This document shows, piece by piece, positions 8,060 through 21,104 of a stretch of 32,000 nucleotides of DNA. How positions within the stretch are numbered: position 1 is the stretch's first letter; the number at the start of each line of letters is the position of its first letter. Source of the DNA: an uncultured bacterium. Its GTDB lineage: Bacteria > Patescibacteriota > Gracilibacteria > UBA1369 > PNNO01. The notes under the pieces were generated by a model, which had not been told where the DNA came from, searched no databases, and saw only the letters and a program-made list of their open reading frames with translations. The DNA lies in the NCBI GenBank assembly GCA_963704705.1, contig OY969931.1, positions 1,320,001 through 1,352,000 on the forward strand, in the 5' to 3' direction. Both the position numbers and the translations under genes were made by a program.

Positions 8060-8680
8060 ATGCAAAAACTGCTGATTGCCACTACAAATCTTGGAAAATT
8101 TTCAGAAATAAAAGAAGTAATCGGAGATCTTAATCTCGATCTTTATCATTTGCATCATGATGAATTCGCTGACATATTGGCCAGCGATCACTTTGAAGAA
8201 AACGGAGAAACATTTGAGGAAAACGCCGAAGCCAAGGCTTCGCATTATCATGAGCTTTTGGGCCTGCCAACCATTGGTGAGGATTCAGGTATAATTGTTG
8301 ATGCTTTGAAGGGCGAACTCGGCGTTAAAACGCGGCGCTGGGGAGCGGGTGCGGATGCAACTGATGAAGAATGGATAGATCATTTTATGAAAGTAATGAA
8401 GGATATACCTGAAGCCGAGCGCGGAGCGCGGTTTGTTTGCTGTGCGGCATTTATTGACGGACCCGGTGAATTGGTTTTATTCAGGGGAGAAACCGAAGGT
8501 GTGATTACCCATGAACTCGAAGCGCCTTTACGGCAGGGAATACCTCTGAGTTCTTGTTTCAGGCCAATCGGCTGCGACAAAGTTTATGCTGCCTTAAGCG
8601 AAACCGAGAAAAATCGTTTAAGTCATAGAGGAAAAGCATTTCATGAACTCCGTAAATATTTGTTGACTTATTTTCAATAA
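8060..8680 (+). CDS. rdgB: non-canonical purine NTP pyrophosphatase (RdgB/HAM1 family)
   Basis: LLIATTNLGKFSEIKEV...GEDSGIIVDALKGELGVKTRRW...FVCCAAF...FRGETEGVI...LSHRGKAF. Confidence 0.85.
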   Translation: MQKLLIATTNLGKFSEIKEVIGDLNLDLYHLHHDEFADILASDHFEENGETFEENAEAKASHYHELLGLPTIGEDSGIIVDALKGELGVKTRRWGAGADATDEEWIDHFMKVMKDIPEAERGARFVCCAAFIDGPGELVLFRGETEGVITHELEAPLRQGIPLSSCFRPIGCDKVYAALSETEKNRLSHRGKAFHELRKYLLTYFQ

Positions 8681-8690
8681 GATATAAAAT
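8663..8690 (+). promoter_or_regulatory. sigma70-like promoter TTGACT-16-TAAAAT
   Basis: TTGACT at 8663-8668 and TAAAAT at 8685-8690, inside the last codons of rdgB and facing the ORF-free GC-enriched segment. Confidence 0.45.
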
Positions 8691-8696
8691 CTCGGC

Positions 8697-8987
8697 GAGC
8701 TTGTGTTGGTTAAGGTGGTTCAAAACACCAAGGTTTTCTTTCGCGGGAAAGCTAAAGGTGTGTCCCCCCGTTTGAACCTTGATCAGCGCAAGCTCCTTAT
8801 GGGAGAGAAAGGCAGCCGGTTTGCGTTTTGGAACGCTTCCTACCTGCCCTTACTCTCCCCCTAAAAACAACCTGCTGTTGAGACCTTAACTGTGTACGCA
8901 GCGGTTCAAATATCGAGAGGCAACTTGATAAGAGCTCGGCTCGGATCCTCAAGATCCACGCTCATTATCACTTGCCTCTCCTTTTTC
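8697..8987 (+). ncRNA. candidate structured RNA A (~290 nt, unclassified)
   Basis: No ORF of 60 aa or more; GC-enriched relative to the backbone. Nested and long-range complements: gagcttg 8697-8703 with caagctc 8789-8795; ggttaaggt 8708-8716 with accttaact 8883-8891; ggttcaaaacacc 8717-8729 with ggtgt 8757-8761 plus tttgaacc 8771-8778; gggagagaaaggcag 8801-8815 with ctgcccttactctccc 8844-8859. It ends in a long terminator hairpin. Confidence 0.4.
8915..8986 (+). terminator. long intrinsic terminator hairpin plus U-tract
   Basis: gagaggcaa 8915-8923 pairs with ttgcctctc 8972-8980. The stem continues inward (gagc/gctc, ggatc/gatcc) and is followed by cTTTTTc at 8981-8987. Confidence 0.6.
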
Positions 8988-9021
8988 AGTTACTTAGTAA
9001 CCCCCTACTTACTAAGTAACT
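8988..9021. repeat. palindromic repeat element (13-bp arms, 8-nt C-rich loop)
   Basis: agttacttagtaa / ccccctac / ttactaagtaact. It has the same TTACTTAGTAA core as the elements at 27403-28004, 29484-29535 and 31161-31194. Confidence 0.85.
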
Positions 9022-9023
9022 AG

Positions 9024-9051
9024 TTGACAAACCTCCGCTTACGTATATAAT
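9024..9051 (+). promoter_or_regulatory. near-consensus promoter TTGACA-16-TATAAT
   Basis: TTGACA at 9024-9029 and TATAAT at 9046-9051. There is no downstream plus-strand ORF. Confidence 0.6.
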
Positions 9052-9057
9052 AACTTC

Positions 9058-9375
9058 CCATTGAGAGAAACTGGTCATGTTGACCTCCTTTAACAGGGTG
9101 TGGCAAATATAATTTTTATTATTATTTGGTTCTCTCGATGGGTTAAAACAAGACACTTTGGCGCTCAGCGTTTAGAGCTTAAGCAGCCAAAGTTAAAAGT
9201 TATGGGAAAGCAGGGAGGGACAGGTTGACCTTACCTCCCCGGGCATGTCTCGCGAAGGTCCCGCCTCCCTTGCTTTCCCGCCTCATCGGAGGAGTTCAGA
9301 ATTAAGCCAAGAAATCGTTCCCTGGAAAGGAATGATGGCTGTCTGGATCAGTAACGTGGTGCTCTACCATGTGAA
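9058..9375 (+). ncRNA. candidate structured RNA B (unclassified; 3' end undefined)
   Basis: cccattgagagaa 9056-9068 pairs with ttctctcgatggg about 9130-9142. actttggc pairs with gccaaagt around 9156-9194. gggaaagcagggaggg pairs with ccctcccttgctttccc (about 9203-9279), with an internal competing cctcccc. No ORF of 60 aa or more and no clear terminator. Confidence 0.3.
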
Positions 9376-9378
9376 CAT

Positions 9379-10530
9379 CTAGGATTCTAACTCCTCCACT
9401 TTTTTATAAACATTATAAGTTGAGTCAGCATAACCCTGCCACGTATATTTTTCCGCTTGTTTTAGACCTTTTGCTAGTATTTTGTCGTATAATTCTTCAT
9501 TTTCAACAAGCTGTGAAATAGTATCTGAAATAGAGTGAGGATCGCGCGGATCAAAATAAAGCGCCGCCTCTCCAAGGGCTTCCGGAAGGCTGGCCGCATC
9601 AGATGAAACAACCGGTGTGCCGCAAGCCATAGCTTCAAGCGGCGGTAATCCAAATCCTTCATATATAGAAGGAAAAACAAAAATATAAGCCATATTATAA
9701 AAAGCCACGAGCTCTTCATCCGGCACGTTCTGAATAATATGCACACTTCCGCTTAAACCTAGATTTTTAATTTGTCTGTTTAATCTGCCCACTCCTCCTT
9801 TTAAGGTTGTGTAGCCAATCAGTAAAAGGTGGATATCCATATATTTTCGTCTGAAAATTTTAAAAGCGCGAAGTAGATTATCAATATTCTTTCTTTTTAA
9901 ATCCAAAGCTCCCACGCATAGTAAATATTTTTTTCCTGGTGTTAAACCGTGCATCAAATAAAAAGAATCCGGAGCGTCGCCGTAAGCTTTAAATTGCTCA
10001 TTTACAGGCGGATAAGCAACTGAAATTTTTTCTTCCGGAATATTTAAATGCTTCATTATATCGGATTTTGTATATTCGGAATTCGCTATAATGTGCGTAG
10101 CTTTTTTCATGCCTTTATACGCCCATTTAATAAACCATCTGAATTTTCGTGAAGATTCGCCTTTAACAACCAAAGGAATCAGATCAAGACAACTCACAAT
10201 GGTTTTTTTAGTTGGCAAATAATTAAGCATAAAAGATTCTTCCGCAAACATTATGTGCTTGATTCTGTTGTGCTTAAACTCTTCTTTATATTTAATTGGA
10301 TGATAAAAATGATTAAGTAAATGCCTCCAAATAGTGTATTTTCGACCCTTTAAAGGGTATAGGTGCACTATTTTAAAACTTACTCTATCATCCAAAATAT
10401 CAAAAAATGGGCCTTCGTAATGACGCTTATAACCTGTCATAGTTTTGTCATCCCCAGTTTCAACAAAGTTTTTTTCGCCTATATAAAGCGTTACCGGTAT
10501 TTTTTTGTTATCGTTCATAGCAAAAAGCAT
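9379..10530 (-). CDS. glycosyltransferase family 4 (GT-B, Glycos_transf_1 type)
   Basis: The C-terminal signature is [37 protein letters not shown]. The start may instead be ATG 10518 (MNDNKK). Confidence 0.85.
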
Positions 10531-12264: not shown

Positions 12265-15091
12265 TTGGCGGTGGTAGCGAATCTTCAACAGGAGGCGTTG
12301 CTGATTCAAAAGGGAGATAATCTTCAGGTATTGTTGTAGGGCCTTCTGTCGGAGTATCTGCAGTTGAATCGCCCTTTATTCTTATTTCAATTGATGATTC
12401 CGCTGTATAACCGCTTATGTCGGTAAGTACCGCTCTTATAGTGTGTGTTGACCCTGGTTCAAGGAATCGTGAAATTCTAAGGCTGCCAGTGTATGGAGCC
12501 GACCTTGAAGTATTCTGCAATGTACCGTCAAGATAATAAGTTACGGAATTTATTTCTAGATCACTTTGAGCTTTAACTGAAACCTGCAAATTTCCGGATT
12601 CCACTTTTGAATAATTTGATGGATCCTGTATTTTAATCGAACGTTTTGCATTTAAGTATTCTTTTGAACATAACGGACTGTAATCTGTTGGAGGAACGCC
12701 AATATTCACGCCTTCATCTTTTGATGCCATAGCCGCTGCCCAAGCCTGCACAGCTGCTTCCCAAACTGCATTTGTAGGATCTATCGAATGATGAACCTGA
12801 TAAGATCTTTCTTCTACTTCTTCTTTAGGACACCATTCATTTGCCAATAATCCGTTACGTTTATCAACATTAACAACTGTATAAGACCTATCAACTTCGG
12901 TTGGAATTCCGAAGCTGGCATAAATTTCGCTTCTTACGCTGCCATCAGGTGTATTTGATCCAGGAAGCTGTCCGTTTGAAGCGCTTACAGTAACTGTTTG
13001 TATGCCCGGAGGTCTTGGGAATTCTTCACGCGCATATCCTTTAACTTCAGCTGCCTTAGTCATAAAATTCTTAAAGATAGGCGCTGCCGCTTCATAACCA
13101 TTTGCAGTTGCTACAAGGTTGCCGCTCTTTCTGTCATCACTGTTACCAGCCCAGACACCTGTTACAATATGCGTTGTGTAACCCATTGTCCACAAGTTAC
13201 TTGGAATATTAATATTATTTACTACTTTGTTTGAAGTACCTGTTTTAGCTGCATTAACCTGACCAGGTACTGTCATCGAAGGTCCAAGTCTTACAGATAA
13301 ATCAGATAAAATATTTGTTATTAAATAAGCTATCTGCGGATCAAGTACTTCTTCATATTCCTGATTATCATCCCATTGCTCCAAAACATCCCCCTGTGCG
13401 TTTGTAATTTTTAAAATACTAACCGGCGGAACTCTTTTTCCTCCATTGGCAAAAGTAGCATATGCGGAAGTATGATCCAAAAGCGTAACTTCAGCTGTAC
13501 CAAGCGCCAAAGGCCATCCGTAATCACGGTCTTTTGTTAAAAAGTGAATACCCATTTTCTCAGCAAGATTCAAAATAGGCTCTTGTCCTCCACCCAAGAA
13601 ATACATCTTAATTGCCGGAATATTTCGAGATTGTGCAAGTGCTCTTCTTATAGTCATAGGCCCCTGAAATGTTCCGTCGTAGTTATCAGGCGGATCACCA
13701 CCACCAAAAGGAGTTCTAACATCATAAACAATATTACCCGGTGAATATCTGTTATAAAAAGCCTGCGCATAAACATAAGGCTTAAACGATGAACCCGGTT
13801 GTCTATATGAAGTTGCGATATTTACATTACCGTCAATGTCTTCATTATAATAATCTGCTGATCCAACCATAGCCAAAATCTGGCCGTTATTAGGGTCGAT
13901 TGAAACTAATGCTGCGTTTGTTGCATTAAATCTCGCATTAGCTGCAGCACCATCTTCAATTGCGGTTTCAGCCAAATTCTGAAGTTCCGGATCTATGGTT
14001 GTATAAACCTGCAAGCCTCCCTGTTCAACAACTTCTTTTCCGTATTTTTCTTCAAGTTGCTCAATCACATAAAACACAAAGTGCGGTGCTTCTATTTTAT
14101 CAACATGCTTTTCCATCTCTAAATTCTGCAATTTTCCCCAGGCCTCATCTTTTTCTTCTTTTGTAATATATCCGTCCTCATACATTTTTCTTAATATCAA
14201 ATCAGCACGACCTGGTATATAAATTCCGTCTCCGTTCGCATACTGATAACCTTTTCCAATTAAACCCATCTTATAATCCACATCTTTTGTTAAATATGAA
14301 GAATCTGTTAGATCCTTGCTTTCAAGAAGTTCAATTGGAACAATCAGTTCTGAATATTTATTTGAACCGTAAGGATTATAATAAGAAGGAGCCTGTGGAA
14401 GCCCTGCCAAAAGCGCACTTTCAGCTATGTCAAGATCCTTGGCGTCTTTATCAAAATAAATTTCAGCTGCTTTTTGTGCACCATACGCATTATTTCCATA
14501 TGGAATTTTATTTAAATAAAGTTCCATAATCGTCTGTTTATCATAAGCCTGTTCAAGCCTTACAGCCAAAATAAGCTCTTTAATTTTTCTTGTATAACTT
14601 CGTTCATTTGTAAGGAACGCGTTTTTAACATATTGCTGCGTAATAGTTGAACCTCCGCGTTGCGCGCCAAACCCAAAAGCTTCATGCAATCCGGCTTTTA
14701 TCAAGCCCGGAATATCAAAACCTTTATGAGTCCAGAACTGATCATCTTCAATTGCAACTGTAGCATCAACCAAATGTTTGGAAATCTGGTCATAAGGAAC
14801 ATATTTTCTGTTTTCATCACCGTGTTTCACATACAAAACATTCCCATCTCTATCGTATATGGTTGTTGACTGCGCTACGCTCAATTTGTCGATATCTCTG
14901 ACATCAGGCAGTCCAACACTTAATATTGCAATTAGTATTGTAAGCACAATTACTCCCGCCAAAAACAGCGTTAAAAATCCGGCCAGAATTAAAATCGCGA
15001 TTTTTTTAGCGGAAAATTTATCTCCCTGTTTAATCTTTAGGAGTGCCTTAATTTTTTGATGGATATTATTCATAAATGTATGGTTTTTCAA
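12245..15091 (-). CDS. class A penicillin-binding protein (PBP1A-type transglycosylase/transpeptidase)
   Basis: It has an N-terminal TM anchor, GT51 motifs (EDDQFWTHKGFD, RGGSTITQQYVKN) and transpeptidase motifs SSFKP and KTGTS. The C-terminus is an Ig-like extension with a Pro-rich tail. Confidence 0.95.
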   Translation of the reverse strand: MKNHTFMNNIHQKIKALLKIKQGDKFSAKKIAILILAGFLTLFLAGVIVLTILIAILSVGLPDVRDIDKLSVAQSTTIYDRDGNVLYVKHGDENRKYVPYDQISKHLVDATVAIEDDQFWTHKGFDIPGLIKAGLHEAFGFGAQRGGSTITQQYVKNAFLTNERSYTRKIKELILAVRLEQAYDKQTIMELYLNKIPYGNNAYGAQKAAEIYFDKDAKDLDIAESALLAGLPQAPSYYNPYGSNKYSELIVPIELLESKDLTDSSYLTKDVDYKMGLIGKGYQYANGDGIYIPGRADLILRKMYEDGYITKEEKDEAWGKLQNLEMEKHVDKIEAPHFVFYVIEQLEEKYGKEVVEQGGLQVYTTIDPELQNLAETAIEDGAAANARFNATNAALVSIDPNNGQILAMVGSADYYNEDIDGNVNIATSYRQPGSSFKPYVYAQAFYNRYSPGNIVYDVRTPFGGGDPPDNYDGTFQGPMTIRRALAQSRNIPAIKMYFLGGGQEPILNLAEKMGIHFLTKDRDYGWPLALGTAEVTLLDHTSAYATFANGGKRVPPVSILKITNAQGDVLEQWDDNQEYEEVLDPQIAYLITNILSDLSVRLGPSMTVPGQVNAAKTGTSNKVVNNINIPSNLWTMGYTTHIVTGVWAGNSDDRKSGNLVATANGYEAAAPIFKNFMTKAAEVKGYAREEFPRPPGIQTVTVSASNGQLPGSNTPDGSVRSEIYASFGIPTEVDRSYTVVNVDKRNGLLANEWCPKEEVEERSYQVHHSIDPTNAVWEAAVQAWAAAMASKDEGVNIGVPPTDYSPLCSKEYLNAKRSIKIQDPSNYSKVESGNLQVSVKAQSDLEINSVTYYLDGTLQNTSRSAPYTGSLRISRFLEPGSTHTIRAVLTDISGYTAESSIEIRIKGDSTADTPTEGPTTIPEDYLPFESATPPVEDSLPPPNEQPSV

Positions 15092-20894: not shown

Positions 20895-21104
20895 ATGGCA
20901 AGGAAGCCCAACGAAAGGTTGATTGGAGTCTGCAATGCATGCGGCATTGAACTGGAAGACAAGATTGTCGATGCGCTCTGGCGCAACGGCGACTACACAG
21001 TGCAGCCCCAGTGCACCAACTGTAAAAAAGGGCGGTTCCAGGCACGCTATCGCAAGATCGACTTTGCCACGCTAAACGTGCTCGGCACCAGGCCGGCTGA
21101 CTGA
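20895..21104 (+). CDS. small 4-Cys zinc-ribbon protein (69 aa), function unknown
   Basis: SD GGAGG lies 7 nt before the ATG. The cysteine pairs are CNAC...(32 aa)...CTNC, and codons are GC-rich. The ORF is short, so coding status is not certain. Confidence 0.55.
   Translation: MARKPNERLIGVCNACGIELEDKIVDALWRNGDYTVQPQCTNCKKGRFQARYRKIDFATLNVLGTRPAD

What the first reader, a model, noticed from the sequence alone, without database searches (positions are those of the whole stretch)
8663..8987. Promoter-to-terminator unit with no ORF: a ~290-nt GC-enriched RNA with nested long-range helices (unclassified)
Seen in the sequence:
- TTGACT-16-TAAAAT (8663-8690) faces a segment with no ORF of 60 aa or more.
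- The segment ends in a 66-nt near-continuous hairpin plus a T5 run (8915-8986).
- Inside it are mutually consistent complements: 8697-8703 with 8789-8795; 8708-8716 with 8883-8891; 8717-8729 with 8757-8778; the local hairpin ctttc-gcgg-gaaag (8738-8751); and 8801-8815 with 8844-8859.
- A second copy of ggttcaaa (8903-8910) could compete for tttgaacc (8771-8778).

In an AT-rich genome, GC-enriched ORF-free segments are usually stable RNAs. I looked for the hallmark strings of RNase P (GGAAAGUCC / ACAGAA..GGCUUA), SRP (GGAAGCAGCC around a GNRA loop), tmRNA (a tRNA-like 3' end and a tag ORF) and tRNA, and found none convincingly. This may therefore be a divergent or undescribed RNA.
Basis: partly seen in the sequence, partly recalled or inferred. 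Interest (0 to 1): 0.6.

Follow-up and report, generated by a model that had tools for sequence, protein, structure and literature searches.

The report
Fast-evolving modular small RNA gene
The stretch is a real gene for a roughly 290-base folded RNA that makes no protein, matches no catalogued RNA family, and occurs only in a few close relatives of this tiny uncultivated (Peribacteria/CPR) bacterium, where its hairpin modules are gained, lost and reshuffled quickly; its job is unknown.

Summary
Window 8663-8987 (+) has a sigma-70-type promoter, four consecutive hairpins (A-D), a U5 run and no ORF over 53 aa. GC is 50% in a 35.5% GC genome, and the fold z-score is about -5.5.

No Rfam family matches it or its homologues. 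RNase P, 6S and tmRNA lie elsewhere in the genome. An SRP RNA reading fails because the genome shows no Ffh or FtsY.

The RNA is single-copy and found only in the gap between the Ham1/RdgB gene and a convergent glycosyltransferase gene, in part of one genus. Primary sequence has diverged beyond BLAST while Ham1 stays 81-90% identical. A covariance model built from two relatives still finds window 8864-8984 (E = 7e-5). 18 of 32 aligned pairs show compensatory changes.

The family is modular. Relatives carry one RNA of about 330 nt. In this genome and two metagenome relatives it is split into two transcription units, the second at 9024-9400. One close relative has deleted nearly all of it.

Function is unknown. 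My best guess, at low confidence, is base pairing through exposed C-rich loops to the few G-rich (Shine-Dalgarno-bearing) mRNA leaders. No transcript data could be obtained.

The scan had noted the neighbouring unit and other undescribed Peribacteria RNAs, but not this family on other DNA.

The parts
8663..8690 (+). Promoter of unit 1. The -35 TTGACT (8663-8668) lies inside the last codons of the Ham1 gene. The -10 TAAAAT (8685-8690) follows right after its stop codon.
   Evidence: Both boxes are kept at the same spacing in all 12 RNA-bearing syntenic loci. The -35 is also under coding constraint (LLTYF).
8697..8795 (+). Module A: long 5' hairpin of about 39 pairs. Its 3' side carries an exposed UCCCCCC (8763-8769).
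   Evidence: MFE. The basal stem AGYTTGYGYTG/CAGCRYAARCT is shared with L057, L091, G002, L095, L093 and G001. 12 columns show double changes against 7.4 in shuffles. The C-run has unpaired probability 0.89.
8801..8859 (+). Module B: hairpin beginning UUAUGGGAG. Present in G000, G002 and L095. Absent in L057, L091, G001 and L093.
8869..8906 (+). Module C: hairpin AACC-U-stem-GGUU.
   Evidence: Covariance model R2, built only from G002 and L095, hits window 8864-8984 at E = 7e-5. Helix 1 has 5 of 12 pairs with double changes and 94% of cells paired.
8907..8914 (+). Conserved single-stranded linker. GGUUCAAAUAU spans 8903-8913.
   Evidence: The same string is in G002, L095 and G001, with near-identical versions in L057 and L093.
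8915..8986 (+). Module D: 66-nt hairpin (8915-8980) plus U5 (8982-8986), the likely intrinsic terminator of unit 1 and of the Ham1 operon.
   Evidence: Helices 2-3 have 11 of 16 pairs with double changes. The U-run after D exists only in lineages that have the second promoter (G000, L057, L091). G002 and L095 read on into module E.
8988..9021 (.). Two copies of the 11-bp palindrome TTACTNAGTAA, 19 bp apart, between the two units and just upstream of the second -35.
   Evidence: The same motif forms arrays at about 15 intergenic sites of the genome.
9024..9400 (+). Unit 2. It has a perfect TTGACA-16-TATAAT promoter, hairpins G, H, E and F, and a U6 run. E and F are the 3' modules of the single RNA of relatives.
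   Evidence: z = -5.3. 68% identical to L057 and L091. Module E is present in G001, G002, L093 and L095, directly joined to modules C or D.

Best explanation
Window 8697-8986 (+) is a genuine, separately promoted gene for a roughly 290-nt structured non-coding RNA. It is also the 3' end of the sigma/anti-sigma/Ham1 transcript, because no terminator lies between the Ham1 stop codon and the unit.

The RNA belongs to an undescribed, single-copy, genus-restricted family built from hairpin modules.
- The likely ancestral form, still seen in relatives, is one RNA of about 330 nt: A-(B)-C-(D)-E-(F).
- In this genome and in L057/L091, module D gained a U-tract and a new consensus promoter arose behind it. 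The gene is now two tandem units, and unit 1 (A-B-C-D) is the one reported.

Shown here: the promoter and terminator, the absence of coding capacity, positional conservation, compensatory base changes and the + strand orientation.

Inferred, at low confidence (about 0.25): the RNA acts in trans without Hfq. Exposed C-rich (CCUCC/UCCCCCC-like) apical loops of modules A and E would pair with the rare G-rich, Shine-Dalgarno-type leaders of this otherwise SD-poor genome. Those leaders belong mainly to GC-rich secreted or surface protein genes, and pairing would block their translation initiation.
For: Structure:
- z = -5.8. Every homologue folds with z between -5 and -10 on the + strand, against an intergenic median of -1.2.

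Homology despite sequence loss:
- BLASTN finds no hit in 40 relatives.
- Model R2, built from G002 and L095, finds the window at E = 7e-5 and L057/L091 at 1e-5.

Covariation on A6:
- 96.1% of cells are paired, against 77.7% in shuffles and about 42% when the partner is slid.
- 18 of 32 pairs have changes on both sides; 0 of 500 shuffles reach this.

Strand:
- Promoter and terminator both point along the + strand.
- Stems of the + strand hold 93 G-U pairs against 7 A-C mismatches.

Promoter: the boxes are conserved in all RNA-bearing loci.

Non-coding: no conserved ORF. L057 unit 1 has no ORF of 20 aa or more.

Copy number and range: model R3 finds one copy per genome, only in G000, G001 and G002.

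C-rich loops:
- Unpaired in module A in 5 of 6 lineages (p = 0.40-0.97).
- Unpaired in module E in 5 of 5 (p = 0.56-0.86).

Targets:
- The genome almost lacks SD sequences. Canonical SDs sit on GC-rich genes.
- The loop GUGUCCCCCC can form 10 bp with GGGGGGACGC at -14 to -5 of the gene at window 16034.
- Orthologous leaders read GGAGG, and the G001 loop reads CCCUCCC.

Hfq is absent.
Against: - No transcript data.
- The family is narrow and patchy. It is nearly deleted in L089/L090 (Ham1 90% identical) and absent in L096, L099 and P0011. It is therefore dispensable.
- Complementarity of the loops to translation-initiation regions is not enriched over internal coding controls.
- The loop/leader co-variation rests on one position in two genomes.
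- Much of the C-rich sequence simply forms the 3' arms of GGAGG/CCUCC-type stems.
- The covariation alignment was fitted to the model's structure and holds only 6 related sequences.
- Module A covariation is modest: 12 double-change columns against 7.4 in shuffles, with 11 of 500 shuffles as high.
Confidence: 0.45

Rival explanations
1. A structured 3' UTR and terminator-insulator. The hairpins serve only in cis. They end and stabilise the Ham1 operon transcript and keep it from colliding with the convergent glycosyltransferase gene. There is no trans-acting role.
For: - The unit lies between convergent genes, and there is no terminator between the Ham1 stop and hairpin D.
- The terminator of unit 2 overlaps the GT4 stop codon.
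- Module content is free to vary, and the whole element can be lost.
Against: - A dedicated promoter is conserved at the start of the element in every lineage that has it.
- About 300 nt of covarying hairpins is far more than termination needs.
- Relatives with overlapping Ham1 and GT4 genes manage without any hairpin.
- Single-stranded linkers such as GGUUCAAAUAU are conserved.
Confidence: 0.22
2. A protein-binding or sponge RNA. The repeated hairpins with C-rich or GGAGG/CCUCC elements would present several binding sites for an RNA-binding protein, or for the 30S subunit, rather than pairing with mRNAs.
For: - Hairpins recur in a modular way and carry similar motifs: UUAUGGGA starts, C-rich apices, and an ACCUCCUU copy of the 16S 3' end in unit 2.
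- Copy number of modules varies between lineages, as in CsrB- or CrcZ-type sponges.
Against: - No partner protein is identified.
- Hfq is absent.
- The motifs are only loosely conserved.
- No Rfam sponge family matches.
Confidence: 0.15
3. A non-functional, decaying hairpin-rich spacer. It could be a remnant of an older RNA gene or of inserted palindromic DNA that happens to be transcribed.
For: - Sequence turnover is very fast while the neighbouring protein stays 81-90% identical.
- Modules have been lost repeatedly, and a near-complete deletion is seen in L089.
- Distribution is limited to part of one genus.
Against: - Pairing is maintained by double substitutions well above the shuffled and slid controls.
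- G-U pairs are tolerated but A-C mismatches are not.
- The promoter and U-tracts are retained.
- The modules have no other copies in the genome.
Confidence: 0.13
4. A highly divergent housekeeping RNA: SRP RNA, 6S, RNase P or tmRNA.
For: No SRP RNA is detectable anywhere in the genome or in 30 relatives, which leaves that slot open.
Against: - RNase P, 6S and tmRNA are found elsewhere with good scores.
- The SRP proteins Ffh and FtsY are also undetectable.
- The RNA is missing in close relatives.
- No SRP-type match appears even at E<10.
Confidence: 0.02

Closest known systems
3'-UTR-embedded small RNAs with their own promoter inside the upstream gene (the DapZ/MicL type of enterobacteria; from general knowledge)
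   Same: The promoter overlaps the end of the upstream coding sequence (-35 in the last Ham1 codons). The RNA shares its terminator with that mRNA.
   Different: - No sequence or structure relationship.
- About 290 nt with four long hairpins, against about 80-100 nt.
- No Hfq in the genome.
- Targets are unknown.
C-rich-loop regulatory RNAs of Firmicutes (RsaE/RoxS, and RNAIII hairpins with UCCC motifs; from general knowledge)
   Same: Several hairpins expose C-rich motifs able to pair with G-rich ribosome-binding sites. They act without Hfq.
   Different: - No Rfam match to these families.
- The host genome barely uses Shine-Dalgarno sequences, so only a small gene set could be targeted.
- Pairing with targets is not demonstrated.
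Other undescribed structured RNAs of Peribacteria noted by this scan (e.g. e1-2552869 in the same genome; tandem 340-395-nt RNAs in relatives)
   Same: Consensus sigma-70 promoter, GC-enriched ORF-free body, U-tract end, restriction to Peribacteria, sometimes tandem units.
   Different: - No shared sequence words with any of them.
- This family is smaller and made of simple hairpins.
- It is limited to part of one genus and is dispensable.
Bacterial SRP RNA (Rfam RF00169 / RF01854)
   Same: Similar size to the long form. It is the one housekeeping RNA with no hit in the genome.
   Different: - No covariance-model match.
- No Ffh or FtsY in the genome.
- Not conserved in close relatives.

Membership tests
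Any Rfam 15 family | Covariance-model score at or above the family's gathering score | tested here: not met
   One search covered the whole window and gave 0 matches. One search covered 8550-9500 at E<10 and gave only two chance miRNA hits, both in unit 2. One search covered six homologous loci at E<1 and gave 0 matches.
Bacterial SRP RNA | Match to RF00169 or RF01854 (helix 8 with its conserved loops) | tested here: not met
   Searches gave no match in the locus or anywhere in the genome.
Bacterial SRP RNA | Partner protein Ffh (SRP54 GTPase plus M domain) encoded in the genome | tested here: not met
   - PF02978, PF00448 and TIGR00959 are all negative.
- No ORF carries the GxxGxGKTT / DTAGR / TKxDG motifs.
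Bacterial SRP RNA | Universal presence in close relatives | tested here: not met
   The element is deleted or absent in L089, L096, L099 and P0011.
RNase P RNA / tmRNA / 6S RNA | Being the genome's copy of that RNA | tested here: not met
   All three are found elsewhere: RNase P at 1031984 with 166 bits, tmRNA at 21093 with 112 bits, and 6S at 12344 with 62.5 bits. ARAGORN finds nothing in the window.
Independent sRNA gene (generic) | Own promoter conserved in position | tested here: met
Independent sRNA gene (generic) | Intrinsic terminator (G+C-rich stem plus U-run) | tested here: met
   Hairpin 8915-8980 plus U5. The simple scan does not list it. I think this is because its loop and stem limits are exceeded.
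Independent sRNA gene (generic) | A discrete transcript is detected | not testable with these tools
C-rich-loop, SD-targeting sRNAs (RsaE/RoxS-like way of working) | Two or more exposed C-rich motifs | tested here: met
   Within unit 1, the UCCCCCC motif has p(unpaired) 0.89, and the CUUCCU and CCUCUCC tracts are partly open.
C-rich-loop, SD-targeting sRNAs (RsaE/RoxS-like way of working) | Complementarity to ribosome-binding sites of target mRNAs beyond chance | tested here: inconclusive
   - No enrichment over internal controls.
- One 10-bp match to the leader of the window-16034 gene, with a single co-varying position against G001.
3'-UTR-type sRNA with internal promoter (DapZ/MicL-like arrangement) | Promoter within the end of the upstream coding sequence, and a shared terminator | tested here: met
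3'-UTR-type sRNA with internal promoter (DapZ/MicL-like arrangement) | Hfq dependence | tested here: not met
   There is no Hfq domain in the genome.

The most novel reading that the evidence does not exclude
In a bacterium whose genes almost all lack Shine-Dalgarno sequences, this RNA and its neighbour act as anti-SD mimics. The neighbour carries ACCUCCUU, a copy of the 16S 3' end. Their exposed CCUCC/CCCCCC loops would specifically silence the small class of GC-rich, SD-bearing surface-protein genes. The loops would then co-evolve with those leaders (GGGGGG with CCCCCC here, GGAGG with CCUCC in G001).
Probability: 0.15. Interest if true: 0.7.

Novelty: new member of a known kind. Interest (0 to 1): 0.4.

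Why it matters
The locus adds a verified, undescribed small RNA family to a candidate-phyla lineage (Peribacteria) that seems unusually rich in unclassified structured RNAs.

It is also a clear natural example of rapid RNA gene evolution:
- Hairpin modules are gained and lost.
- One gene has split into two transcription units by gaining a U-tract and a promoter.
- A sister lineage has deleted almost the whole gene.

Pairing is preserved by compensatory changes throughout, even after the sequence has drifted beyond BLAST detection. If the anti-SD idea holds, the RNA would tie into the odd two-class translation-initiation signals of this genome.

Tried and rejected
**Ruled out**
- Rfam at the gathering threshold and at E<10: nothing relevant.
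- tRNA and tmRNA scan: none.
- SRP RNA idea. It arose because RF00169 and RF01854 find nothing in the genome or in 30 relatives. I rejected it because Ffh and FtsY are also undetectable and the RNA is missing in close relatives.
- A string in unit 2 (AAGCAGCCAAAG) that looks SRP-like by eye. No model supports it.
- Small-protein reading: no conserved ORF.

**Searches that found little or nothing**
- BLASTN of 8660-9410 against 40 relatives: no hit. In its own genome only a 35-nt palindrome recurs.
- The motif AACCT..GGTTCAAATA in 150 genomes of the order: chance level apart from G000 and G002.
- The module E motif in the same 150 genomes: G000 only.
- MAFFT alignment of module A: the 3' arms were misaligned.
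- Model R1 for module A found only its own seed sequences.
- RNAduplex scan of the loops against all translation-initiation regions: not enriched over internal controls.

**First-reader pairings**
- The long-range pairing and the alternative-pairing switch are not conserved.

**Literature and tools**
- No paper links Peribacteria or Peregrinibacteria to SRP loss or to structured RNAs.

Full report
**1. The observation**

The reported features are in the sequence:
- TTGACT-16-TAAAAT lies at 8663-8690 and scores 10/12 in the consensus scan.
- An ORF-poor stretch follows. The largest ORFs are 53 aa on the + strand and 51 aa on the - strand.
- A 66-nt hairpin spans 8915-8980 and is followed by TTTTT at 8982-8986.

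RNA folding of 8695-8990 gives -113.8 kcal/mol, z = -5.84, and 0 of 200 dinucleotide shuffles do as well.

The minimum-energy fold is four consecutive hairpins, which I call A to D:

| Module | Window coordinates |
|---|---|
| A | 8697-8795 |
| B | 8801-8859 |
| C | 8869-8906 |
| D | 8915-8980 |

It does not contain the long-range pair 8708-8716 with 8883-8891.

The unit has 50% GC in a genome of 35.5% GC. Among the genome's 199 ORF-free gaps of at least 200 nt, the median z is -1.2 and the 5th percentile is -5.4. This gap ranks 7th.

**2. Setting**

The window is G000:C1:1320001-1352000 of a complete 1.37-Mb genome.
- Earlier notes of this scan call the genome Peribacteria.
- Sources name the Ham1 relatives as Patescibacteria or Peregrinibacteria.

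The unit follows an ECF sigma factor gene, a 324-aa protein gene with no Pfam match and a Ham1/RdgB gene, all on the + strand. It faces a convergent family-4 glycosyltransferase gene.

The 700-nt gap holds a second unit. It has a perfect TTGACA-16-TATAAT promoter at 9024-9051, about 350 nt of structure (z = -5.3) and a U6 run.

**3. Known RNAs excluded**

- No Rfam family reaches its gathering score in the window.
- None of relevance appears at E<10 in 8550-9500.
- None appears at E<1 in six homologous loci.
- ARAGORN finds nothing.
- RNase P, 6S and tmRNA are elsewhere in the genome.

Neither SRP RNA model finds anything in the genome or in 30 relatives. That made an SRP RNA reading tempting. 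The SRP proteins are missing too:
- PF02978, PF00448 and TIGR00959 are all negative.
- My own six-frame scan finds no ORF with the SRP-GTPase motifs.

The RNA is also absent from close relatives (section 4). I reject the SRP reading.

**4. Relatives**

BLASTN of the gap finds nothing in 40 related genomes. I therefore used synteny through Ham1.

The promoter boxes are kept at the same place in all RNA-bearing loci. The content of the gap differs between loci:

| Locus | Ham1 identity | Gap content |
|---|---|---|
| L057, L091 | 89% | Two units, as in this genome, but without module B |
| G002 = L100 | 81% | One RNA: A-B-C-D-E, then a U-run |
| L095 | 84% | One RNA: A-B-C-D-E, then a U-run |
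| G001 | 86% | One RNA: A-C-E-F |
| L093 | 84% | One RNA: A-C-E-F |
| L089, L090 | 90% | Only the promoter, the first ~25 nt, the last ~25 nt and the U-run (internal deletion) |
| L096, L099, P0011 | 79-90% | No gap at all |
| G003, L058, L097, L098 | 77-79% | A different-looking structured transcript at the same place |

E and F are the 3' modules of what is unit 2 in this genome. The U-run after D occurs only where the second promoter exists.

The simplest history is this. An ancestral single RNA, A-(B)-C-(D)-E-(F), was split into two transcription units in the G000/L057 lineage. Modules were lost elsewhere. This order of events is an inference from module distribution and was not tested on a rooted tree.

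**5. Homology and covariation**

- A covariance model built only from modules C+D of G002 and L095 (A3, R2) finds window 8864-8984 at E = 7e-5, L057/L091 at about 1e-5 and G001 at 0.03.
- On the resulting 6-row alignment, 96.1% of cells form pairs. Shuffles give 77.7% and slid controls about 42%.
- 18 of 32 pairs show changes on both sides, and 0 of 500 shuffles reach this.
- The alignment is fitted to the model and the rows are related, so these figures are generous. The contrast with the slid controls is still large.
- For module A, a cruder arm-against-arm alignment gives 12 double-change columns against 7.4 in shuffles, with 11 of 500 shuffles as high. Module B gives 4 against 1.3.
- Every homologue folds with z between -5 and -10 on the + strand, more stably than the - strand in 9 of 11 cases.
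- Stems hold 93 G-U pairs but only 7 A-C mismatches. This fits selection on a + strand RNA.
- A broader model (R3) finds exactly one copy per genome. It hits only G000, G001 and G002 among 13 genomes of the family.
- Two motif scans over 150 genomes of the order find nothing beyond this circle.
- No ORF is conserved.

**6. How it may work**

Shown here:
- a conserved promoter that overlaps the end of Ham1
- a terminator
- a non-coding, structured, + strand RNA
- conserved single-stranded linkers (UAAAGUAACC before C, GGUUCAAAUAU after C)
- exposed pyrimidine- and C-rich tracts at the apex of A (5 of 6 lineages) and of E (5 of 5)

Hfq is absent.

I tested the obvious idea that the C-rich loops block Shine-Dalgarno sites. 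The result was unexpected. The genome hardly uses SD sequences:
- GGAGG lies upstream of only 5 of 1198 ORF starts.
- G makes up only 5-10% of bases at positions -16 to -1.
- The enriched upstream words are ATAAC and TAAC.
- The 16S 3' end still reads CACCUCCUUUCU.

Canonical SDs occur mostly on the few GC-rich genes.

The A-loop GUGUCCCCCC can form 10 bp with GGGGGGACGC at -14 to -5 of the GC-rich secreted-protein gene at window 16034. Its orthologues carry GGAGG there, and the G001 loop reads CCCUCCC.

This is suggestive, but it is a single co-varying position. Loop complementarity to initiation regions is not enriched over internal controls overall. I therefore put a trans-acting, SD-leader-targeting mechanism at about 0.25.

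The remaining probability goes to three rivals:
- a purely cis-acting 3'-UTR or terminator role
- a protein- or ribosome-binding role
- a decaying element

**7. Comparison and novelty**

By arrangement, the unit resembles 3'-UTR-embedded sRNAs with an internal promoter. By its loops, it resembles C-rich-loop regulators of Firmicutes. It is a member of neither family by sequence or structure.

It shares no sequence with the other undescribed Peribacteria RNAs noted by this scan.

I rate it a new member of a known kind: a lineage-specific bacterial small RNA. Its most instructive aspect is its evolution, with module turnover and a gene split.

**8. Limits**

- No expression data could be obtained.
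- Only about six independent sequences were available.
- The function is inferred, not shown.

Noticed in passing
whole genome G000 and relatives: No SRP pathway is detectable. SRP RNA (RF00169, RF01854), the Ffh M domain, the SRP54 GTPase domain and TIGR00959 are all negative in this complete genome, and no ORF carries the SRP-GTPase motifs. PF00448 was also negative above cut-off in 30 genomes of the order. It was negative apart from one short (34-residue) P-loop match in 40 genomes of the class, and negative in 24 genomes of the phylum. It was positive in all 14 control genomes. A phylum-wide absence conflicts with my expectation, so the first-look filter of the genome-search tool may be missing them in relatives. 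For G000 the absence was checked independently.
   Followed up: partly
whole genome G000 (e.g. leaders at window 16034; genome 638357, 1096496, 1274351): The genome is nearly free of Shine-Dalgarno sequences. G makes up 5-10% of bases at -16 to -1, and ATAAC/TAAC words are enriched around -15 to -10. The 16S 3' end still reads CACCUCCUUUCU. Canonical AGGAGG sites sit almost only in front of GC-rich (at least 0.5 GC) genes, many of them secreted or surface proteins. This suggests two classes of translation-initiation signal. Start codons came from a crude ORF caller.
   Followed up: partly
window 9024-9400 (+): The second unit is conserved at 68% identity in L057 and L091. Its module E (GG-UU-GACNNN...NNNGUC-CC stem, CCCGGGC apex, GUCCCGCC) covaries across six lineages. 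Its first hairpin contains ACCUCCUU, identical to the 16S 3' end, and this is kept in L057. In this genome the terminator hairpin F carries an insertion of about 110 nt that L057 lacks.
   Followed up: partly
window 8988-9021, and about 15 other intergenic sites (e.g. genome 99484, 247664, 1274181, 1317066, 1347420, 1347972): The 11-bp palindrome TTACTNAGTAA occurs in arrays with an 18-19-bp period and G/C-rich linkers. This looks like an operator for a dimeric transcription factor. Two copies sit directly upstream of the -35 of unit 2. L057 lacks them.
   Followed up: partly
L024 (G003), L058, L097, L098: the gap after Ham1: A sister lineage has, at the same position and with the same promoter placement, a different-looking structured transcript. 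It has a long hairpin, then a single-stranded UAAAAAGGAGG (a perfect SD with no ORF behind it), a small hairpin and a GUUGA-containing terminator hairpin. Its z-scores run from -3.7 to -6.8.
   Followed up: partly
genome 1126750-1126971, 1207355-1207723, 971311-971545, 1187170-1187490, 1190694-1190945, 1094265-1094700, 115608-115989: These are other ORF-free gaps with very strong predicted structure (z down to -10.3) and/or high GC. Several sit behind consensus promoters (for example 1094301, 115615, 935402). They are likely further unclassified RNAs.
   Followed up: no
L091:2450-2560: An AT-rich insertion of about 110 nt, containing a perfect palindrome (AAATTTCAAAAATT...AATTTTTGAAATT), lies between the two units. 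The otherwise near-identical L057 lacks it.
   Followed up: no
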